Shown: positions 6,811 to 64,000, counted from the stretch's first letter. The stretch is 64,000 bases of DNA from Candidatus Kuenenbacteria bacterium (GCA_013202715.1 JABMRF010000007.1:72566-136565); one strand, 5' to 3'. Made by a program: numbers and translations. The notes: generated from the sequence alone by a model not told the origin.

Positions 6811-6857
6811 AAATCCCCCGTCTCGAGTTGATCGAGAGGCGGGGGTGTTTTTGTTTT
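6811..6857. terminator. Bidirectional rho-independent terminator between convergent genes
   Basis: cccccgtctcgagttgatcgagaggcggggg hairpin with an A-run before and a T-run after. Confidence 0.7.
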
Positions 6858-7335
6858 AGCGCATGAATGGATTTCTGCCGGGGCACATTCTCTCAGTGAG
6901 AATTTCATCAGCCATCTCCCTAAGTTCAAGAGAGTCGGCCTTGAATCGAATGAGTTTCAGTGTCTCGGTGTCTTTATTTACTAATTTTCGTGCTAACATC
7001 TTCGCCTCAATCGTAGAGCGAATCTCAGGACCGCCATCTTTCCAGAGCAGGAACTGCTTGATTCGGAGCGCATCGATAACCTCGTCAGAATTCATCTTCG
7101 TTTCCAAGTCAGCCTTGAGATGATCCAGTTTTCTCCATGCGTTTGGCATGGCATTGTCAAGCGCTCTTCGCGCAGGGTGCTTGTGACGGAGAATCTTCCA
7201 AAGGTTGTAAAGCTCCATTGGAGTATGTTCTTTTGATTCAACAACTTCGAGTGGCTTTGCAGCCATCACAACCTCGATTTGGAAATCGGTGAAATCGCCT
7301 TTAGCTTTTAATCTTTCTTTTGTGGTAAGTATCAT
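6856..7335 (-). CDS. Hypothetical cytoplasmic protein, divergent partner of the secreted nuclease
   Basis: ORF with an AAGGAGG RBS 5 nt upstream of the ATG at 7335; ~45% GC; no recognisable motif. Confidence 0.45.
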   Translation of the reverse strand: MILTTKERLKAKGDFTDFQIEVVMAAKPLEVVESKEHTPMELYNLWKILRHKHPARRALDNAMPNAWRKLDHLKADLETKMNSDEVIDALRIKQFLLWKDGGPEIRSTIEAKMLARKLVNKDTETLKLIRFKADSLELREMADEILTERMCPGRNPFMR

Positions 7336-7431
7336 TCTTCCTCCTTTTGTGAACGATTTACAATGAATCACTGCAATGCTGTATCTTAGCAGAGCCTAAT
7401 ATTTTTGTCAAGAGTTCGTTACAGATATTCC

Positions 7432-12736: not shown

Positions 12737-13363
12737 CTACAGGTTGAGCTGCAACCGGAAAAGGAACATGTTCGTTTCCTTGTCCGCTGGCGAAATGTCG
12801 TAACCCAGCCAGAACATTGCCGAACCGGCGGAAATTCCTCCTCCGAATGCGGCTTCGAACCAGTCATCTTCACTGAGGAAATGTTCTGTGAAGAGGCCGA
12901 CGCCCCATTTCTCGAAATTGTACATGAGGGTCGAGAGGATGTAGTACTGCCTGAACGTGTGCTCTCCATCTCCCTCTGTCGAGAGAGGAAAGTAAACGTC
13001 GCCTTCCAGGAAGAACAGCAGTTCATCAAGGCCGAGTGTCTGTTCCATCCAGACTGAGGCCAGCGCGCTCGTGCCACCGTCAGGTGACATGAATGTGCCA
13101 CCGAGTAGCCAGAGAGTTGTCTTCGGTAGACTCAGCTTCGGCCCTACGTAGGTGAAAAGCATCGGAGTCATGGTTCCGAAGTCCATCAGCGCCGTTCCGT
13201 GTACGTAACAGCTGAGATGTGCACTTTTGCTGAGCTCCGCATCGCCGATGTCCCTGCCGACGGCGATCATCAGTTGCCCGGTGGTCGTGTGCTCCTCGGC
13301 AAGAACTGACGACGAGAGACAGATCAGACAAAGAACAAACGTGAACAGTTGCAGTTTTCGCAT
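12737..13363 (-). CDS. Secreted protein of atypical composition (~53% GC), possibly a small beta-barrel
   Basis: Signal peptide MRKLQLFTFVLCLICLSSSVLA; alternating hydrophobic pattern; C-terminal FRLQLNL; GC far above the genome background. Confidence 0.5.
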   Translation of the reverse strand: MRKLQLFTFVLCLICLSSSVLAEEHTTTGQLMIAVGRDIGDAELSKSAHLSCYVHGTALMDFGTMTPMLFTYVGPKLSLPKTTLWLLGGTFMSPDGGTSALASVWMEQTLGLDELLFFLEGDVYFPLSTEGDGEHTFRQYYILSTLMYNFEKWGVGLFTEHFLSEDDWFEAAFGGGISAGSAMFWLGYDISPADKETNMFLFRLQLNL

Positions 13364-31123: not shown

Positions 31124-31639
31124 CTATTGTGCTGTAATACCATATAATTTGCAATTCACAGCTGCGCCATTACAGCGAACAATCTTTTTTGGATAAACTC
31201 GACGAAGGGTACCCTTGACGAACATCAGATGCGACCGAATCACTTCTGTTTCAAGGCTGAGCATAACATCATCTCTCCAAGTATAGGCTTCAAATGAACG
31301 ATCAGCCCATACTTCTCCTTTTTCAATGCACACCTTCACGGAAAAGCCCGCGCCAAAACCCTCGAAATACAGACAGTCATCAAGTGTCTCACTGGGGAAA
31401 ATCAGGCGTGCTGTCTTCTGCATCTCAGGGCCAGATACATGGTTGCCAGCATCTGGTACGTAGACCAGCTGGACGTCACGTAGATCTGCACTGTCCGGCT
31501 TGTCTGGCCAAGCCACAAAAAAACCGGGCTCTGTTTCCTTCTTGGTTTCAGTCTTGTCCTTGGCTACAGTCAGGGTTGTACCACCAAGCACCATCACCAA
31601 AGACAAAATTACCACCAAACAAGCTCTCAGACTCTTCAT
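31124..31639 (-). CDS. Secreted/lipoprotein-like hypothetical protein (~50% GC)
   Basis: AAGGAGG RBS; signal peptide MKSLRACLVVILSLVMVLGG. Confidence 0.45.
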   Translation of the reverse strand: MKSLRACLVVILSLVMVLGGTTLTVAKDKTETKKETEPGFFVAWPDKPDSADLRDVQLVYVPDAGNHVSGPEMQKTARLIFPSETLDDCLYFEGFGAGFSVKVCIEKGEVWADRSFEAYTWRDDVMLSLETEVIRSHLMFVKGTLRRVYPKKIVRCNGAAVNCKLYGITAQ

Positions 31640-31729
31640 GCATACCTCCTTTGCAAATATAGACACCAAAACCATTTCGCATAAGTATAGCATTATAATA
31701 ATATCCTGTCAATAGCATTTTTTTTGCCC

Positions 31730-31795: not shown

Positions 31796-32221
31796 ATGGG
31801 TCAATTTGACGAGTCAAGGACTGTTGACAAGATGGGTTTGGTTCGGAAGCTGGAAAGTGAACTTGGCTACCTTGAGGCACAGTACGGTTTTGTGATCGGA
31901 AGATCACTTGAATTCGTTTCACTGGCTGGCGCTCTCCTGGAAATGCGCAAGCGCGCACGAGAAGCGAACAAGAGGCGGGTTTTGTATTGGCGGAAAAAGG
32001 ACGTAGAGGCTTTCCTAAAGAATAGGGAAGTTGGAATCAAAATTTACTGTGTTTGTTTGGGCAGTGATTTTCGTATGCCAATGTATACAGATCCAGAAGA
32101 GATTGCCAACGCGGTCGGATATCTCAAACGCGAACTGCACATGGACGGCTTTCTTGTTGATTGGACAGGTGATACCAACGACCCAATCATGGTCAGGGAT
32201 AATGAGTATATTGAAGAATAG
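31796..32221 (+). CDS. Hypothetical protein
   Basis: AAGGAG RBS; 141 aa; no motif. Confidence 0.45.
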   Translation: MGQFDESRTVDKMGLVRKLESELGYLEAQYGFVIGRSLEFVSLAGALLEMRKRAREANKRRVLYWRKKDVEAFLKNREVGIKIYCVCLGSDFRMPMYTDPEEIANAVGYLKRELHMDGFLVDWTGDTNDPIMVRDNEYIEE

Positions 32222-34910: not shown

Positions 34911-35390
34911 ATGTATCCCTTTGATCTCGAACTTTTAATCACTCTTTTGTGCAACTCTAAATTTTGGTGCGACAGACTTACGGATATCAACCTCGATAGA
35001 GTGTTTCCCGACTGGAACTTCATGGGAAGTGGGGGAGGGGCACATCCGATTGGCACAATCGACAACCACTGGAACTATGACGTAGTTGGATTTGAGAGAT
35101 GGAGACTGATCGTCTTTTGTCTCAAGTTCATCGCCCAGGGTGAGACACTTCAGCTCCCATACGAGCTTCTCCCACTGTGGTACCCAGATCGACCGGTACC
35201 CATCTGGAAAGTCCACCCAGACGGCCAGATCTCTATCCGTGGGCCACTGCCACCGTTACACGATCTGCAGCTTACCCTGGAGCCCTTTCAACTGAACCCG
35301 AAGTTGGGTATCTGTATATCCAACAGAGCGAAGTTTCTCCTCATCGAGGAAAGAATAGCCGCTCCTAGTGAATTTCCACTCTCTCTATGA
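34911..35390 (+). CDS. Hypothetical protein (~50% GC)
   Basis: AAGGAG RBS; 159 aa, W/P-rich. Confidence 0.45.
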   Translation: MYPFDLELLITLLCNSKFWCDRLTDINLDRVFPDWNFMGSGGGAHPIGTIDNHWNYDVVGFERWRLIVFCLKFIAQGETLQLPYELLPLWYPDRPVPIWKVHPDGQISIRGPLPPLHDLQLTLEPFQLNPKLGICISNRAKFLLIEERIAAPSEFPLSL

Positions 35391-50408: not shown

Positions 50409-50438
50409 TTGACAAATTTTTGAAACTATGCTATAATG
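50409..50438 (+). promoter_or_regulatory. Promoter TTGACA-18-TGcTATAAT driving the GC-rich gene
   Basis: AT-rich host-type promoter directly upstream of a 60% GC CDS. Confidence 0.55.
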
Positions 50439-50571
50439 CTGTATCAATTGGTTCTTTGAAAAATCGCTTGAGTACAACAGAAAGACCTTATTTACAATTA
50501 TCTATTGTATGTAGCGTCTTTTTGTTGTGTCGAGAGTCAACAATTTTTCAAAACCTTAATTGGAGGAAAGC

Positions 50572-52281
50572 ATGAAGAACGGAGAAAAGACGCTGAATGG
50601 AATCGTTGGTCTGTACAAGGAGTTTGGTCCCGACCTTCCGGTCGTGACCATCCAGGGAGTGCAGGTTGTCCGTCTGCCCAGCACCGTGACGGTGCTGGCG
50701 GACATGAAGGACGAGACGGTCCTCCAGCCCCTCAACCAGGCGAGGATTTTCCACGCCACTGACAGGCAGGGACAGTTTTTCCTGCTCCTCACCGAGGATG
50801 GCGCTGCCAAGATGGCATCGCTCATCGCAGAGGACCGGAACACCCGGGGTGAGGTTCTGACCGTGGCCGACGGCTACACCAAGTTCGTCACCTACACGGT
50901 GGCCATGGCAGCGGCAGCCGCCGCAGCCAAAGCCAAGAAGGCGGCAGCGGAAGCCAAGTCCCAGGCCAAGGCAGCAGCCACAGCCAAGCGGCTCGAGTCT
51001 TACAAGCTCATGGACCTGATCCGGTTCGGGCAGAGGGACTGCGTCCTCCTGCCCTCGGACGAGGTGGCGGAGATCCCGCTGCTAAAGGTCAAGCCCCTCC
51101 TGGGGACCATGGCTTCGTTCGTGAGGACCAAGCTGGAGGCAGTGGCCGAGCAGTACGAGGCCGACTACTCAACAGCTATCGCCGAGGCGCAGAAGGACAA
51201 GCCCTTCGCGCACGGCGGAGAGCTGGTCGACTGGGAGCGGGAGTTCCGTGCCCAGTGGGCTGACAAGAATGGCAAGTCCGCCCCGACGATGTGGGGTATG
51301 ACGGTTCTTCTCAGAAACTTCGACGATTACGGCGAGTTCGCCATGATCATCCGGTCGGATGACAAGGAGGCCATTCTGGGTCTCACCGGTTCGAGGTTGA
51401 TCTCTATGGGCGAGCCCATGCACTGGAGGCTCCGGAAGAAGTACTTCTTCGATCCGCGCGCAAAGGCGGCAGAAGAGGCGCGGAAGCTGGAGGCCAAGCT
51501 GGCTCGGGAAGCCAGGGCCAAGGAATCAGCGGAAAAGCTGCAGACCAAGGTCGAGGCCATGAAGGCCACCGGCAAGAACTTCCACACGTGTCAGGGCGAT
51601 ACCGTCTGGACACCTGTGGAATCCTTCGTGCGGATGTCCATGGACGATCTCGTCGTCTGCCCCGTCCTGGGGGAGATGAGCGAGGATGACGTCCTGGCCT
51701 GTATGGACGAGAAGTTCGTCGATGCGTACGAGTCCGCTCTGGACCAGGCGCAGAAGGCCGGCCCTCTCGGCGTGAAGGACTACTTCTCGTTCGAGGGGAA
51801 GTTCCGGAACGAGTATGCGAAGTCCAGCGGTGGTGCCACTCCCGGACTGGCGGACTTCGTCGTGGTGACGCGATACTTCCGTCGGGAAGGCGTGTGTTGC
51901 GCGGTCGTTCACAGGGACGATCTCGCGGCATTCAAGGCCATCGCGGGCAAGGGGACGAACCCCAACACCCGGGAGACCTACGAAGTTCCTCTTCGGGATC
52001 ACAGTGATCCCTTCTGGTGGATGCTCCGAAAGGAGCACTTCTTCGATCCCCTTTCCCAGCGAAAGGATCAGGAGAGGCAGGCAGAAGAAGAGGTCGTCGC
52101 GGTCCGGAAAGAACAGACGTTCGACCAGATGGGTGATCTCATCGGCGCTGAGCGACTGAAGGAGATGCGCGCATCGTTGGCTTCGGCCGACGAGGTCATC
52201 GATGATCACAAGTCTGCCGGCCGGCAGAAGTGGGACCGCCGGAAGAACGGTGGCGGCAAGAACCGCGGCAAGCGCGGCTAG
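50572..52281 (+). CDS. Hypothetical protein of foreign composition (~60% GC) with internal duplication, poly-Ala/Lys segments and a K/R/G-rich tail
   Basis: GGAGGA RBS; repeated P(M/F)xW(R/M)LRK(K/E)(Y/H)FFDP motif at two positions; AMAAAAAAAKAKKAAAEAK; C-terminal KWDRRKNGGGKNRGKRG. Confidence 0.6.
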   Translation: MKNGEKTLNGIVGLYKEFGPDLPVVTIQGVQVVRLPSTVTVLADMKDETVLQPLNQARIFHATDRQGQFFLLLTEDGAAKMASLIAEDRNTRGEVLTVADGYTKFVTYTVAMAAAAAAAKAKKAAAEAKSQAKAAATAKRLESYKLMDLIRFGQRDCVLLPSDEVAEIPLLKVKPLLGTMASFVRTKLEAVAEQYEADYSTAIAEAQKDKPFAHGGELVDWEREFRAQWADKNGKSAPTMWGMTVLLRNFDDYGEFAMIIRSDDKEAILGLTGSRLISMGEPMHWRLRKKYFFDPRAKAAEEARKLEAKLAREARAKESAEKLQTKVEAMKATGKNFHTCQGDTVWTPVESFVRMSMDDLVVCPVLGEMSEDDVLACMDEKFVDAYESALDQAQKAGPLGVKDYFSFEGKFRNEYAKSSGGATPGLADFVVVTRYFRREGVCCAVVHRDDLAAFKAIAGKGTNPNTRETYEVPLRDHSDPFWWMLRKEHFFDPLSQRKDQERQAEEEVVAVRKEQTFDQMGDLIGAERLKEMRASLASADEVIDDHKSAGRQKWDRRKNGGGKNRGKRG

Positions 52282-52325
52282 CTACCCAAACCTACCTAGG
52301 GACGTCCGTCCCAAAAGTCCCCCCC

Positions 52326-52360
52326 GCACTCGGGGGGGACATTTTTTTTGTCCGGATTTA
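52326..52360 (+). terminator. Rho-independent terminator (C7/G7 stem)
   Basis: gtccccccc gcactc gggggggac + TTTTTTTT. Confidence 0.85.
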
Positions 52361-52468
52361 AAAGGGGGCTCCATAGTTGCGGAGCACTGTGGAGTCCATA
52401 TAGGGATGTTTTAACGGTGATTTTGTGGAAGTTCTTTAAATTTTCCAACAGGACTATGGAGCCCCCTT
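52361..52468. repeat. ~108-nt element bounded by 16-17-bp perfect inverted repeats (possibly MITE-like or a structured RNA)
   Basis: aagggggctccatagt (52361-52377) ... actatggagccccctt (52452-52468) with internal ggagtccata/tatggagcc pairing. Confidence 0.55.
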
Positions 52469-52510
52469 TACTTTGTGTTTTTTGCGATTTTGCCTGTTTC
52501 GCGCTTTTGC

Positions 52511-52545: not shown

Positions 52546-52611
52546 ACTAAGAAAAAGGACATGTTCGTTAAATTTGAGCCCCATGTTGCTAATTTGACTA
52601 GAGGAGGCTTG

Positions 52612-60586: not shown

Positions 60587-61375
60587 ATGCTCACCTTTGC
60601 GGCCATTGTGCCTCATCCACCGGTCTTGATTCCAAGTATCGGTAAAGAAAATATAGATAAATTAAAAAAAACCATTAGTGCTTTGGATATTCTTGAGGAA
60701 GAATTAAATCAAGCGAATCCTGATACTATAATTGTGATTTCTCCGCATGGCGAAATTAATTTTGAAGCATTTACAGTTAATACTAATGAAAAATATACAG
60801 CAAGATTTGAAAATTTTGGCGATTTTACAACCAAGCTGGAATTTAAATCAGATCTGGGATTTATAAATCAGCTAAAAGCGACAAATGAAACAAAATTACC
60901 GGTCCAACTGATTTCACAAGAAAATCTTGATCATGGTGTGTCGGTCCCCCTTTATTACTTGACTCGAAAAAATCAAGATCGCAGAATTGTGCCGATCAAT
61001 TATAGTTTTTTGAATTTTAATAAACATTTAGAGTTTGGCGAATTGATAAAAGAAGCCATTTTTTCTTCAGACAAAAGAGTTGCAATTATTGCTTCCGGAG
61101 ATCTATCACACAAGTTGAGTTTGCGAGCGCCAGCAGGATTTTCTCCACACGCAAAAGAGTTCGACAAAAAGCTGATTCAGGTTTTGAAAAAGAAAAGTGT
61201 GCAGGGAATTTTGGATATGGATCCGGCCTTTATCGAAGAGGCTGGCGAATGCGGTCTACGCTCATTCCTGATCCTACTTGGAGCGATTAAAAACATGAAA
61301 TATGAATTTGAAGTTTTGAGCTACGAAGCACCGTTTGGGGTTGGCTATTTAGTCGGAGAGTTCAAGTTTGCGTAA
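60587..61375 (+). CDS. LigB/Memo-superfamily (class III extradiol-dioxygenase-like) protein
   Basis: N-terminal AAIVPHPPV (LigB-type metal His), VISPHGE, and ASGDLSHKLS (YgiD/DODA-like S-x-D-L-S-H). Confidence 0.55.
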   Translation: MLTFAAIVPHPPVLIPSIGKENIDKLKKTISALDILEEELNQANPDTIIVISPHGEINFEAFTVNTNEKYTARFENFGDFTTKLEFKSDLGFINQLKATNETKLPVQLISQENLDHGVSVPLYYLTRKNQDRRIVPINYSFLNFNKHLEFGELIKEAIFSSDKRVAIIASGDLSHKLSLRAPAGFSPHAKEFDKKLIQVLKKKSVQGILDMDPAFIEEAGECGLRSFLILLGAIKNMKYEFEVLSYEAPFGVGYLVGEFKFA

Positions 61376-61430
61376 TGCGAATATAGATAAATGCGAATGA
61401 CGCGAATCGCGAATGATGCGAATAAAGAAT
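61371..61430. repeat. (C/T)GCGAAT repeat array downstream of the LigB-like gene
   Basis: gcgtaatgcgaatatagataaatgcgaatgacgcgaatcgcgaatgatgcgaataaag; five units mirroring the upstream array. Confidence 0.7.
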
Positions 61431-61504
61431 AAAAGTACAAATATCGTCTTTTGGGGCGATTTTGTGATTCTAGGGCTTGTTTTTAGGTAAACTTAGTCAA
61501 CCCT

Positions 61505-61533
61505 TTGACAAATCAAGAAAAATCATGTATAAT
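61505..61533 (+). promoter_or_regulatory. Promoter TTGACA-17-TATAAT (TG directly upstream) for the GC-rich CSD-fusion gene
   Basis: ctttgacaaatcaagaaaaatcatgtataatg. Confidence 0.55.
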
Positions 61534-61658
61534 GCTACTTAAACAAGTTCCTTTCAAAGTATCGAAAACTGTGTGTTTCAGTGGACCCCTCCGGGTCTGT
61601 CTGTGGTTAGGGTTTGCATGTGCAAGCCCATCTGTTTGTTAACCGTATGGAGGTAGAG

Positions 61659-63182
61659 ATGACAGTAGATCGAGGAAGTATCGTTTCAGCTGAAGTGCTC
61701 AGAATGCTCATGTCCTCACCGGGCGAAGATGAAGAACTCAGCGGTGAGATTGTCAGCATTGGAGCCAAAGACTTTGCGTTCATTGGGAATGTGAAGGACT
61801 CACGGGGCCGGCCGGTTGATACCGGCGCTGGCGATGTGTTTCTTCACCAGGAGGAACTCCTTGGTGGAAAAATGGAAGTTGGGACGGTCCTGAAGTTCAG
61901 GGTTGTTCCCGATGAGAGGAGACTCGGTAAACTGCGAGCGCTTCAGGCGCACTCAGTCGATCTGGCTCTGGTGCCGGTGAAAAAGGAAGTTGTGTTTCCG
62001 GTGTCAGTCGTTACCGGCGCACAGTCGTTCTACCACGTGCGTGCCAAGAAGATTCTGCCGGAAATCGTTGACCAGGCTGACAACAACAAGCCGTTTGACG
62101 GTGTCTTCCGACCGACTTCCCAGGCAGATGCGATCAAGATTGCGAACCGAGATGTCCTGGCCGACGTGATCAACGTTTGGCTGAAGGCGAGCTTCGCGAT
62201 GTTCGAGAGCTTCGGTGTGAACTTCGATCTGCGCCAGCCAGTGACGGATGAAGAGCGGGACATGATCGAAAAGTACGCCCAGTCGTTTGGCAATGGTGGC
62301 ATGGATGCTGCAGCTCGGAAGCTCAAGCAGCAGTTCGAGACGTTCTTGAACACCAAGGATGTCTTCAACTACCTGTACAATTCAAATCGCCTCCTGCCCC
62401 AGAGCGTACTCAGTGTTGACTACCTGCCTGACATGATGATGGCCGCGCCGGTCTGGTTCGCACGAGGGAAAGAGGAATTCCCCAACAAACAGGATAGACA
62501 CGATCCAATGCCGGACGAGTTTGTTCAGTACATGTGCGGACTGGGCAAAACCCAGCGCATGGCAAACCTGATGCAGCTTTTCAATCGGCGCACACGGCCG
62601 TTTGACATGTATGAGGGAGACGTGATTCCTCCTCATATCTGGGAGACGATCCAGGCCTGCTCAAACAGAGACAACCTGTTGTCAAAGTTCGATTACCTGG
62701 TGATTGCCACTCCGTATCACAACATTGCCAGCAAGGAATGGGCTGATCCCAACTGGCAGGGCATGATTGATCCTTACCTGCTTGCATTCTCAAAGGATGT
62801 GCCTGAATTTTTCTTCGTGCTTGGTCGTTGGAGTGACACGGGGCTTCTGCCGCTAGTTAGCGAGATGACGGCCGATACCGTGAATTTCACGAGAGAGCAC
62901 CTTGAGGGAATTGAGAACTTTTCTCAGCCCTACTGGCACATTGAGGCTGGTGACAAAAAGGATAGTGATCCAGAGGATGATGAAGGGTCTCGGATTGCGG
63001 CTGATGGTACACATTATAATCAGAGTTTAAAAGACGGTGTTCCTGCTCCATATCTCAAGGATGGTTCATTGCCACAATTTGCCAGGGAATTGATCGAGCG
63101 TTTCGAAAAGGGTGACCTTTTCCCCTGGCTGACGGATGACACTTACACCGGAGAGCCGGATGAGACGACACCTGAAGGTTAA
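61659..63182 (+). CDS. Hypothetical protein of foreign composition (~58% GC) with an N-terminal cold-shock/S1-like OB domain
   Basis: GGAGGTAG RBS; N-terminal GEIVSIGAKDFAFIGNVKDSRGRPVDTGAGDVFLHQEEL...GTVLKFRVV parallels the CspA fold pattern (GxV..F...KGFGFI......DVFVH...L); about 400 aa of unknown domain follow. Confidence 0.55.
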   Translation: MTVDRGSIVSAEVLRMLMSSPGEDEELSGEIVSIGAKDFAFIGNVKDSRGRPVDTGAGDVFLHQEELLGGKMEVGTVLKFRVVPDERRLGKLRALQAHSVDLALVPVKKEVVFPVSVVTGAQSFYHVRAKKILPEIVDQADNNKPFDGVFRPTSQADAIKIANRDVLADVINVWLKASFAMFESFGVNFDLRQPVTDEERDMIEKYAQSFGNGGMDAAARKLKQQFETFLNTKDVFNYLYNSNRLLPQSVLSVDYLPDMMMAAPVWFARGKEEFPNKQDRHDPMPDEFVQYMCGLGKTQRMANLMQLFNRRTRPFDMYEGDVIPPHIWETIQACSNRDNLLSKFDYLVIATPYHNIASKEWADPNWQGMIDPYLLAFSKDVPEFFFVLGRWSDTGLLPLVSEMTADTVNFTREHLEGIENFSQPYWHIEAGDKKDSDPEDDEGSRIAADGTHYNQSLKDGVPAPYLKDGSLPQFARELIERFEKGDLFPWLTDDTYTGEPDETTPEG

Positions 63183-63194
63183 GTTGTAAAAACA

Positions 63195-63228
63195 GAGCCC
63201 CCCCGCATCGCGGGGGGGCCTTTTTCTT
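63195..63228 (+). terminator. Rho-independent terminator (C7/G7 stem)
   Basis: gcccccccgcatcgcgggggggc + TTTTT; same style as 52326-52360. Confidence 0.85.
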
Positions 63229-63280
63229 CCAAAAAATTGGACTGGATTTTTGTGTAATTTTTGTTATAATACAAGCACCT

Positions 63281-64000
63281 ATGAAAAAGATCGCTCAAAT
63301 TATTCCCATAAAAAAGCTGCCAAGGGGTATGCGGTTTTTTGATTACTGGGAAAAAGAAGGCGAAAGAGGGCGAAAGAAGGCGAAAGAAGATGGAGACATT
63401 GAAATTAAGGTTGGGGATATTGTGAACATTCCTTTTCGCAAGAATATGATGATCAAGGGAATTGTGCATTCTTTCAAGGATACAACCGATTTTCCAGAAG
63501 CAAAGGAGATTGACAGCTTGGATGAAGATTATGGCGGACTGCTCCCCTATCAGCTAGAATTAATTTTTTGGTTTTCCGAGTATTATTACCATTCTTTGGG
63601 CTCTACCGCTGACATGTTTTTTCCGGCCGTTCCGAAACGGGCGGTAAAGATTTCTGATGCAGAAGATGAAAAGATACCTACTTTGAACGACCAAAAAAGC
63701 GATTCAAAAGTGATCAGTTTATCTGAACAAATAAATAGTTCAAAAGAAAAAAAATATTTACTGTTTCCGTACGATTTGGAAATGAAAGAACAGTTTTATC
63801 TGGAACTGTGCCGACAGGCAATCAAAAACAAAAAGCAAATCCTAATTTTATTTCCGCAAGTATATAAAGTGGAAGAGTTTGCTCAGAAGTTACCAAATGA
63901 ACTTAAAGAAAAAACTGCCGTGCTCACTTCTGATTTATATACGGCCAAATCAAGATATTTTCGAACCTGGAAACAAATCAAGGAAAATCAAAAACAGATC
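63281..64000 (+). CDS. priA: Primosomal protein N' (PriA), N-terminal part; runs off the window
   Basis: N-terminal 3'-DNA-binding-domain pattern (F.DYW...G.IV.IPFRKNM.IKGIV), then LLFPYD and LILFPQVY helicase-entry motifs. Contains the in-frame GGCGAAAGA repeat insert. Confidence 0.6.
   Translation, partial: MKKIAQIIPIKKLPRGMRFFDYWEKEGERGRKKAKEDGDIEIKVGDIVNIPFRKNMMIKGIVHSFKDTTDFPEAKEIDSLDEDYGGLLPYQLELIFWFSEYYYHSLGSTADMFFPAVPKRAVKISDAEDEKIPTLNDQKSDSKVISLSEQINSSKEKKYLLFPYDLEMKEQFYLELCRQAIKNKKQILILFPQVYKVEEFAQKLPNELKEKTAVLTSDLYTAKSRYFRTWKQIKENQKQI

What the first reader, a model, noticed from the sequence alone, without database searches (positions are those of the whole stretch)
61505..63228. 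Second GC-rich single-gene island: cold-shock/OB-like N-terminus fused to a ~400-aa unknown domain
The CDS 61659-63182 is ~58% GC and uses the same promoter and C7/G7 terminator style as the 50572 gene (gcccccccgcatcgcgggggggc versus gtcccccccgcactcgggggggac). This suggests both came from the same source or use the same cassette logic. Its N-terminal ~90 residues follow the cold-shock-domain pattern (GEIVSIGAKDFAFIGNVKDSRGRPVDTGAGDVFLHQEEL...GTVLKFRVVP). The rest is unrecognised. A CSD fused to a large novel domain points to an RNA- or ssDNA-targeting function.
Basis: partly seen in the sequence, partly recalled or inferred. Interest (0 to 1): 0.7.

Follow-up and report, generated by a model that had tools for sequence, protein, structure and literature searches.

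The report
Inserted cold-shock-domain gene, unknown partner domain
A strongly promoted single gene inserted between two housekeeping genes of a Kuenenbacteria (CPR) genome encodes a cold-shock RNA-binding domain joined to a ~390-residue domain unlike any known protein, and its family is GC-richer than its host genome in nearly every organism that carries it.

Summary
The gene is real, but its GC content is 52.4% (GC3 60%), not ~58%, against 39.5% for the window. It has a perfect TTGACA-17-TATAAT promoter, a ~118-nt leader, a GGAGG ribosome-binding site and a C7/G7 hairpin terminator. The 50572 gene shares this layout.

The family is rare, about 250 clusters, mostly in CPR. It always occurs as a lone gene with no conserved neighbour.

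In three related genomes Memo and priA are adjacent, so this ~1.9-kb cassette is an insertion.

"Same source as the 50572 gene" is not supported. In 24 of 25 loci the family's GC3 exceeds that of flanking ORFs and tracks the host. The 50572 gene has a syntenic, equally GC-rich homolog in a relative. GC-richness therefore looks maintained, not freshly imported.

A major clade of the family carries a covarying two-hairpin leader RNA. The window's leader does not match it.

Function is unknown. My best guess is an abundant, leader-controlled RNA-binding protein with a new effector domain.

The parts
61505..61533 (+). Sigma-70-type promoter: -35 TTGACA (61505-61510), 17-nt spacer, -10 TATAAT (61528-61533)
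   Evidence: 12/12 consensus match. Only 3 such sites occur in 64 kb against 0.01 expected.
61541..61658 (+). 5' leader of ~118 nt. It has two small hairpins (61579-61603; 61610-61629), UCUGUCUGUG and CUGUUUGU boxes, and the Shine-Dalgarno GGAGG at 61649-61653, 5 nt before the ATG.
   Evidence: Sequence. RNAfold gives -35.3 kcal/mol with z only -1.33. There is no Rfam hit. The leader is not matched by covariance models R1 or R2 built from the leader of another clade of the family. The SD context and a U/G-rich box followed by a hairpin are shared with the closest homologs L005, L021 and L045.
61659..63182 (+). CDS of 507 aa (hypothetical protein HQ571_01490, Candidatus Kuenenbacteria), GC 52.4%, GC3 0.60
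   Evidence: The identical protein is held by NCBI, JGI and Logan.
61737..61955 (+). Cold-shock domain, residues 27-99. RNP1-like K-D-F-A-F-I and RNP2-like D-V-F-L-H are present, with a ~12-residue insert between strands 2 and 3.
62016..63143 (+). C-terminal module, residues ~120-495: a helical subdomain (~124-241) followed by an alpha/beta subdomain (~250-420) and terminal helices (470-492). Family-conserved residues are N143, P145, P264-V-W, N309-R-R-x-R313, D321, D345, T351-P-Y-H354, W361, D371-P-Y, R390-W-S392, G395 and W426.
   Evidence: Alignments A1 and A2. The model has pLDDT >90 over most of the module. There is no sequence or fold match.
63197..63228 (+). Intrinsic terminator: 10-bp all-G:C stem (C7/G7), 3-nt loop, T-tract
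   Evidence: It shares CCCCCCCGCA...CGGGGGGG with the terminator at 52317-52340.
61376..63280 (+). Extent of the insertion between the stop codon of the AmmeMemoRadiSam-B (Memo/LigB) gene and the priA start (63281)
   Evidence: In L046, L047 and a JGI contig (Memo 76-84% identical) Memo is followed by priA after 0-85 nt. No flanking direct or inverted repeats were found.

Best explanation
This is an accessory gene that entered this Kuenenbacteria lineage as a self-contained unit between the Memo-like gene and priA.

It is transcribed from a consensus promoter. It is translated from a strong ribosome-binding site behind a ~118-nt leader. A very stable terminator insulates it from priA.

The product is cytoplasmic and has two parts. 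An N-terminal cold-shock domain keeps the aromatic RNA/ssDNA-binding face. A ~390-residue module of unknown fold carries a small set of invariant polar residues: an NRRxR patch, D345, D371, R390 and S392.

The most likely mechanism has three inferred steps. First, the cold-shock domain holds single-stranded RNA. Second, the C-terminal module acts on that RNA or on something bound to it. Third, the amount of protein is set after transcription through the leader, as for cspA-type genes.

Shown:
- gene structure;
- the insertion;
- the CSD fold;
- the absence of known relatives for the C-terminal module;
- family-wide GC3 excess;
- a covarying leader in a sister clade.

Inferred:
- RNA binding;
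- any catalytic activity;
- leader-based regulation in this genome;
- high expression.

The GC-richness is a trait of the family. It is probably kept up by selection on codons or mRNA, or by GC-biased recombination. It is not the residue of a recent import from a GC-rich donor.
For: Anatomy.

C-terminal module:
- No match in Pfam, PHROGs, PADLOC or NCBIfam.
- No match to PDB sequences.
- Foldseek on the PDB and BFVD libraries finds nothing.

Family:
- 250 representatives at E <= 1e-3. Many carry the N-terminal CSD-like region and many start later without it.
- Loci lie in CPR classes, some Gammaproteobacteria, Bdellovibrionales and Actinomycetes MAGs, and one Woesearchaeote.
- There are no conserved neighbours.
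- There are no phage or plasmid copies.

Insertion.

GC trait:
- Gene GC3 exceeds the median flanking-ORF GC3 in 24 of 25 loci, by 0.164 on average (sign test p 1.5e-6).
- The gene is the highest-GC3 ORF in 19 of 25 loci.
- Regression on host GC3 gives slope 0.89, intercept +0.22, r 0.71.
- A3 is depleted in 25 of 25 loci.
- In the Uhrbacteria locus, r-proteins L7/L12 and L10 shift the same way (GC3 0.63-0.64 against a median of 0.55) and the family member goes further, to 0.754.

Leader in a sister clade:
- A 24-bp hairpin is 88% paired against 40-52% for slid controls. 20 of 24 pairs show compensatory changes, reached by 0 of 500 shuffles.
- The second hairpin is closed by fully paired stems in 12 of 12 leaders. 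Its loop is complementary to the 3' arm of hairpin 1 (mean z -1.9, p 5e-5).
- CUGAYUG boxes lie next to the SD.
Against: - No experiment or homology ties the C-terminal module to RNA or to any activity.
- Many family members lack the CSD, so the core function does not strictly need it.
- The window's own leader is not significantly structured (z -1.33). It is not recognised by either covariance model.
- High expression is inferred only from signals and codon bias. ATP synthase alpha and beta genes in this genome show no GC3 shift (0.30-0.31).
- The AlphaFold database could not be searched, so a predicted-structure relative may exist.
- The loci in the GC3 test are not phylogenetically independent.
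Confidence: 0.5

Rival explanations
1. Recent horizontal import from a GC-rich donor. The gene, and the 50572 gene with it, arrived lately from the same foreign source and simply have not yet drifted to the host's composition.
For: The gene is absent from three syntenic relatives. It is compositionally deviant. Its codon usage is uncorrelated with the host. The family is patchy across phyla.
Against: - The GC3 excess appears in 24 of 25 hosts, including hosts with GC3 above 0.7, and tracks host GC3 with slope ~0.9.
- The GC-rich stretch coincides with the CDS, while the promoter, leader and terminator look host-style. Terminators differ in other hosts.
- The 50572 gene has a syntenic homolog only 29% identical yet still at GC3 0.85 in a 40% GC relative, so its synonymous sites should long since have equilibrated.
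- The two proteins are unrelated.
- No mobility genes, target-site duplication or terminal repeats were found.
Confidence: 0.2
2. Single-gene anti-phage or conflict system. The CSD senses phage RNA or ssDNA and the unknown domain is a toxic effector, as in abortive infection.
For: It is a stand-alone gene that is patchily distributed and gained by insertion. It joins a nucleic-acid-binding sensor to an unknown, possibly enzymatic, domain. Family members sit next to tRNA genes in 3 loci.
Against: - No PADLOC match beyond noise.
- Neighbours are housekeeping genes, not defence islands.
- A consensus constitutive promoter and expression-type codon bias are unusual for a toxic effector.
- No homologs or anti-defence counterparts appear in phage collections.
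Confidence: 0.15
3. Abundant RNA chaperone or cold- and stress-adaptation protein with no enzymatic activity. The C-terminal module is a scaffold or oligomerisation domain, and the gene is autoregulated through its leader like cspA.
For: The CSD has an intact RNP1/RNP2 face. The leader is long. A structured, switch-like leader occurs in the sister clade. The promoter is consensus. Codons are enriched in C3 in the same direction as r-protein genes. Most invariant residues are P, W, Y or G, which are structural.
Against: Members without a CSD keep the C-terminal module and, at least in L020 by eye, a similar hairpin leader. Conserved D345, D371, R390, S392 and the NRRxR patch look like a functional site. 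No cold-box-like element was tested.
Confidence: 0.15

Closest known systems
Bacterial cold-shock proteins (CspA/CspB; Pfam PF00313) and eukaryotic multi-domain CSD proteins (Unr/CSDE1, Lin28, YB-1)
   Different: - Sequence scores fall below the Pfam threshold.
- A ~12-residue insert lies between strands 2 and 3.
- The domain is fused to a ~390-aa module absent from all characterised CSD proteins.
- Many family members lack the CSD.
CSD/S1-containing ribonucleases (RNase R / RNase II: CSD-CSD-RNB-S1)
   Same: An OB-type RNA-binding domain placed N-terminal to a large effector domain is a plausible analogy for how this protein could work.
cspA-type 5'UTR thermosensor and autoregulatory leaders
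   Same: A leader of more than 100 nt lies between a strong promoter and the SD. In a sister clade the leader has mutually exclusive pairings (hairpin-1 3' arm with its 5' arm, or with the hairpin-2 loop) and an anti-SD-like CCUCC inside hairpin 1.
   Different: There is no sequence relation to the cspA leader and no Rfam family matches. Regulation is untested, and the window's own leader does not match the motif.
TAACTGA direct repeats upstream of start codons in Beggiatoaceae (PMC4679880)
   Same: Short CTGA-containing repeats lie immediately upstream of start codons. That paper proposes them as possible sites for Csp-like regulators. The sister-clade leaders carry one or two CUGACUG boxes next to the SD.
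   Different: The repeat unit and organisms differ, the idea is only a hypothesis in that paper, and the window has CUGUCUG and CUGUUUG instead.

Membership tests
Cold-shock domain (OB fold, PF00313) | Five-stranded antiparallel beta-barrel of ~70 residues superposable on Csp structures | tested here: met
Cold-shock domain (OB fold, PF00313) | RNP1 ([KR]-G-[FY]-G-F-I) and RNP2 (V-F-V-H) nucleic-acid-binding motifs | tested here: met
   KDFAFI and DVFLH align to KGFGFI and DVFVH of Bs-CspB (hhalign probability 89%, E 2e-6). The family consensus is GYGFIG / DVFVHQ.
Cold-shock domain (OB fold, PF00313) | Score above the Pfam gathering threshold (27 bits) | tested here: not met
   The window protein has no hit at E <= 1. 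Homologs score 11.5-18.5 bits.
Cold-shock domain (OB fold, PF00313) | Binding of single-stranded RNA or DNA | not testable with these tools
   This needs EMSA or fluorescence titration.
Known anti-phage defence systems (PADLOC-DB) | Significant match to a defence protein model, or location in a defence island | tested here: not met
   Best E-values are 0.023-0.044 over short stretches. Neighbours are housekeeping genes.
Horizontally acquired genomic islet | Present in this genome but absent at the same site in close relatives | tested here: met
   Memo and priA are adjacent in L046, L047 and a JGI contig.
Horizontally acquired genomic islet | Mobility hallmarks: integrase or transposase, tRNA target, flanking direct or inverted repeats | tested here: not met
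   None were found in the window. tRNA genes adjoin homologs in L007, L009 and L011 only.
Horizontally acquired genomic islet | Composition explained by a foreign donor rather than by the gene family itself | tested here: not met
   GC3 excess is family-wide, in 24 of 25 hosts, and tracks host GC3.
Two-hairpin leader RNA of the sister clade (models R1 and R2, defined here) | Match of the window leader to the covariance models | tested here: not met
   No hit at 61535-61660 at E <= 10 with R1 or R2. There is only a by-eye resemblance in layout.
Rfam cis-regulatory families | Match at the gathering score | tested here: not met
   No hit in the window. Only tRNA and rRNA hits appear in 13 homolog loci.

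The most novel reading that the evidence does not exclude
The family is a self-contained RNA-directed module with three unusual properties. Its C-terminal domain would be a previously unseen enzyme fold. Its expression would be governed by a new switch-type leader RNA, possibly bound by its own cold-shock domain at CUGACUG boxes. Its coding sequence would be actively held GC-rich in every host. One possible reason is to keep its own abundant mRNA from being bound or processed by its A/U-preferring product or by host AU-directed RNases. Together with the 50572 gene and other GC3-high orphans, it would mark a class of CPR genes whose composition is set by selection rather than ancestry.
Probability: 0.2. 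Interest if true: 0.75.

Novelty: new variant of a known kind. Interest (0 to 1): 0.55.

Why it matters
CPR bacteria are full of unannotated genes, and few come with clear handles. This one has four.

- It has a recognisable RNA-binding domain.
- It has a confidently modelled ~390-residue partner domain with no relative among solved structures or curated families.
- A sister clade has a leader RNA with strong covariation that is not in Rfam.
- Its compositional signature contradicts the usual reading that a GC-deviant gene is a recent foreign import.

If the GC excess is selected, it offers a tractable case of selection on mRNA composition. It also warns against composition-based HGT calls in these genomes.

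Tried and rejected
- **Curated profile libraries.** Pfam, PHROGs, NCBIfam and PADLOC scans of the protein, of diverse homologs and of longer members gave nothing beyond sub-threshold CSD hits.
- **Mobile-element collections.** The IMG/VR scan and the phage and plasmid tblastn searches found no homolog, so I dropped a phage or plasmid origin.
- **Conserved neighbours.** All-against-all BLAST of flanking ORFs across 35 loci found only antisense or alternate-frame ORFs overlapping the gene itself.
- **Co-occurrence of the two GC-rich genes.** The 50572 protein gave only a self-hit in the word-indexed search. A syntenic homolog was later found by position, but that relative lacks the 61659 gene.
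- **Window leader as a member of the sister-clade leader.** Rejected by two covariance models.
- **Transposon-like insertion.** There are no flanking repeats.
- **MAFFT alignment of the second hairpin.** It was too poor to count pairs formally. I used hand-delineated stems instead, which is a weaker test.
- **Literature searches.** They found no description of this family.

Full report
**Observation.**
- The window is a Candidatus Kuenenbacteria (CPR/Patescibacteria) contig. The 507-aa product is identical to hypothetical protein HQ571_01490.
- The ORF runs from ATG 61659 to the stop at 63180-63182.
- Its GC content is 52.4%, not ~58%. GC1/2/3 are 0.60/0.37/0.60, against 39.5% for the window and GC3 of 0.30-0.38 for ordinary genes. 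GC3 peaks at 0.74 mid-gene and falls to 0.43 in the poorly conserved 3' tail.
- The promoter at 61505-61533 is a perfect TTGACA-17-TATAAT. Only three such sites exist in 64 kb, against 0.01 expected. The other two precede the 50572 gene and a 141-aa orphan at 31796.
- A ~118-nt leader ends in GGAGG, 5 nt before the ATG.
- The terminator at 63197-63219 is a 10-bp all-G:C hairpin that shares CCCCCCCGCA...CGGGGGGG with the one at 52317-52340.
- The description is therefore right except for the GC figure.

**The protein.**
- With a 132-sequence alignment, AlphaFold2 gives mean pLDDT 85.6.
- The family profile aligns to B. subtilis CspB at 89% probability and E 2e-6, matching KDFAFI to RNP1 and DVFLH to RNP2.
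- Homologs give sub-threshold PF00313 hits, and the profile finds only CSD chains in PDB sequences.
- Residues ~120-495 are modelled confidently, with pLDDT above 90 over most of the region. They form a helical subdomain followed by an alpha/beta subdomain.
- Conserved positions include an NRRxR patch, D345, T351-P-Y-H354, D371-P-Y and R390-W-S392.

**The family.**
- A word-indexed search found 11 relatives. A full profile search found 250 representatives at E <= 1e-3 and 159 at E <= 1e-30. Many begin with the CSD-like region, and many others begin about 100 residues later without it.
- Loci come from several CPR classes, from MAGs labelled Gammaproteobacteria, Bdellovibrionales and Actinomycetes, and from one Woesearchaeote.
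- The gene is always alone. The only ORF clusters shared by more than 3 of 35 loci overlap the gene itself on other frames (contexts).
- No copy occurs in IMG/VR, GenBank phages or PLSDB plasmids.

**Is it an island?**
- Yes, in the sense of an insertion. In three genomes whose Memo-like protein is 76-84% identical, gene order is conserved from gltX to fmt, and Memo is followed by priA after 0-85 nt. The ~1.9 kb at 61376-63280 is therefore extra here.
- There are no flanking direct or inverted repeats and no mobility genes. A cluster of six GCGAAT units sits at the left junction.

**Is the GC-richness a sign of recent foreign origin?** The evidence says no, on four counts.
- Across 25 loci with at least three flanking ORFs, the family member's GC3 exceeds the flank median in 24. 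The mean excess is 0.164 (sign test p 1.5e-6). The gene is the highest-GC3 ORF in 19.
- Gene GC3 regresses on host GC3 with slope 0.89 and intercept +0.22 (r 0.71). A constant offset that persists even in hosts with GC3 above 0.7 does not fit amelioration from one donor pool. Third-position A is depleted in 25 of 25 loci, and the A/T to G/C shift is roughly symmetric.
- The other GC-rich gene (50572, GC3 0.805) is not an orphan. The relative L046 has, in the same slot after gltX, a 316-aa homolog (BLASTP E 2e-17, 29% identity, one copy of a unit that is duplicated in the window protein). It has the same promoter, leader and SD layout, and GC3 0.852 in a 40.2% GC genome. At 29% protein identity, synonymous sites are saturated, so that composition must be maintained.
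- Terminators of family members in other hosts are ordinary hairpins, so the C7/G7 style is local to this genome.

**What maintains the bias is open.**
- In an Uhrbacteria locus the r-protein genes rplJ and rplL shift the same way (GC3 0.63-0.64 against a median of 0.55), and the family member goes further, to 0.754. That pattern fits expression-linked codon bias.
- In the window genome, however, ATP synthase alpha and beta show no shift (GC3 0.30-0.31).
- GC-biased recombination and selection on the mRNA remain possible.
- The two window genes have unrelated products. Their codon usage correlates only moderately (r 0.48) and differs in how it relates to the host (-0.67 against -0.07).
- One gene is syntenic in a relative and the other is a new insertion. 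'Same source' is therefore not supported.

**Leader RNA.**
- Thirteen distinct homolog loci from six nominal taxa share a ~120-nt leader.
- Hairpin 1 has 24 base pairs and an internal loop. It is 88% paired, against 40-52% when partners are slid. Twenty of 24 pairs show compensatory changes, reached by 0 of 500 shuffles.
- Hairpin 2 is closed by fully complementary 5-6-bp stems of at least eight different sequences. Its loop holds a segment complementary to the 3' arm of hairpin 1 (mean z -1.9, p 5e-5). I delineated these stems by hand, so this is a weaker test.
- One or two CUGAYUG boxes flank the SD. An anti-SD-like CCUCC lies inside hairpin 1.
- This layout looks like a switch. No Rfam family matches it.
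- The window's leader is not a detectable member. Neither the full model nor the hairpin-1 model finds it at E <= 10, and its fold is not unusual (z -1.33).
- It shares only a U/G-rich box, a small hairpin and the SD context with its closest relatives L005, L021 and L045. Four sequences are too few to test this.

**Interpretation.**
- The safest statement is that this is an accessory, probably strongly expressed, cytoplasmic protein joining a bona fide cold-shock domain to a new module.
- I think it most likely binds single-stranded RNA through the CSD and acts on it, or with it, through the C-terminal module, with leader-based control of its level (confidence ~0.5).
- Three rivals remain: a recent import whose composition is merely foreign (0.2), a single-gene defence system (0.15), and a non-catalytic RNA chaperone (0.15).
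- Function cannot be settled with these tools.

**Novelty.**
- CSD fusions are a known kind. This partner domain, the sister-clade leader and the family-wide GC offset appear undescribed.
- I rate it a new variant of a known kind, with interest 0.55.

Noticed in passing
window 50409-52340; L046 470-1700: The 50572 gene (569 aa, GC3 0.805) contains an internal duplication of ~170 aa (26% identity, E 2e-14). It has a syntenic one-unit homolog in a related genome that is equally GC-rich (GC3 0.852 in a 40% GC genome), with a conserved promoter, leader and SD. Its 141-nt leader folds unusually well (z -4.8). The word-indexed protein search had called it an ORFan.
   Followed up: partly
window 12737-13363 (-), 6856-7371 (-), 31796-32221 (+), 31124-31693 (-), 34911-35390 (+): There are further GC3-elevated ORFs (0.46-0.67). 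The four that were scanned have no Pfam match. The ORFs at 12737, 6856 and 31796 have TTGACA promoters, the one at 31796 being the third perfect consensus in the window. The 12737 product has a signal peptide. GC-rich, strongly promoted orphans seem to be a recurring class in this genome.
   Followed up: partly
L008 5889-6006, L010 5842-5964, L032 3859-3982, L017 5902-6030, L013 5811-5940 and 8 more loci: An undescribed two-hairpin leader RNA with strong covariation, CUGACUG boxes and a possible alternative pairing lies upstream of one clade of the CSD-fusion family, across several nominal phyla. There is no Rfam match.
   Followed up: yes
window 61368-61423: Six GCGAAT units within 56 nt lie at the left junction of the insertion, just after the Memo-like gene's stop codon. 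GCGAATG as such is not enriched window-wide (9 found against 7.7 expected).
   Followed up: partly
window 63335-63385: Three tandem GGCGAAAGA-like units lie inside the 5' part of priA and encode a short E/K/G-rich insert.
   Followed up: no
window 52345-52480: A ~17-nt inverted repeat (aaaagggggctccatagt ... actatggagcccccttt) lies between the 50572 terminator and the promoter of the 241-aa ORF at 52561. I saw it while reading the sequence.
   Followed up: no
L007 5578-5782, L009 1169-1339, L011 5686-5757: tRNA genes lie immediately upstream of the family member in three unrelated loci. This may mark a preferred insertion site.
   Followed up: no
L009 1559-1600: In the Bdellovibrionales locus, an ATG right after the conserved SD opens a 10-codon frame that ends in ATGA, overlapping the annotated start. 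This is either a frameshift in the MAG or a coupled upstream ORF.
   Followed up: no
L046 19922-20281: A bAvd / 23S-rRNA-IVP family gene, the accessory protein type of diversity-generating retroelements, lies ~9 kb from the syntenic region in the related genome.
   Followed up: no
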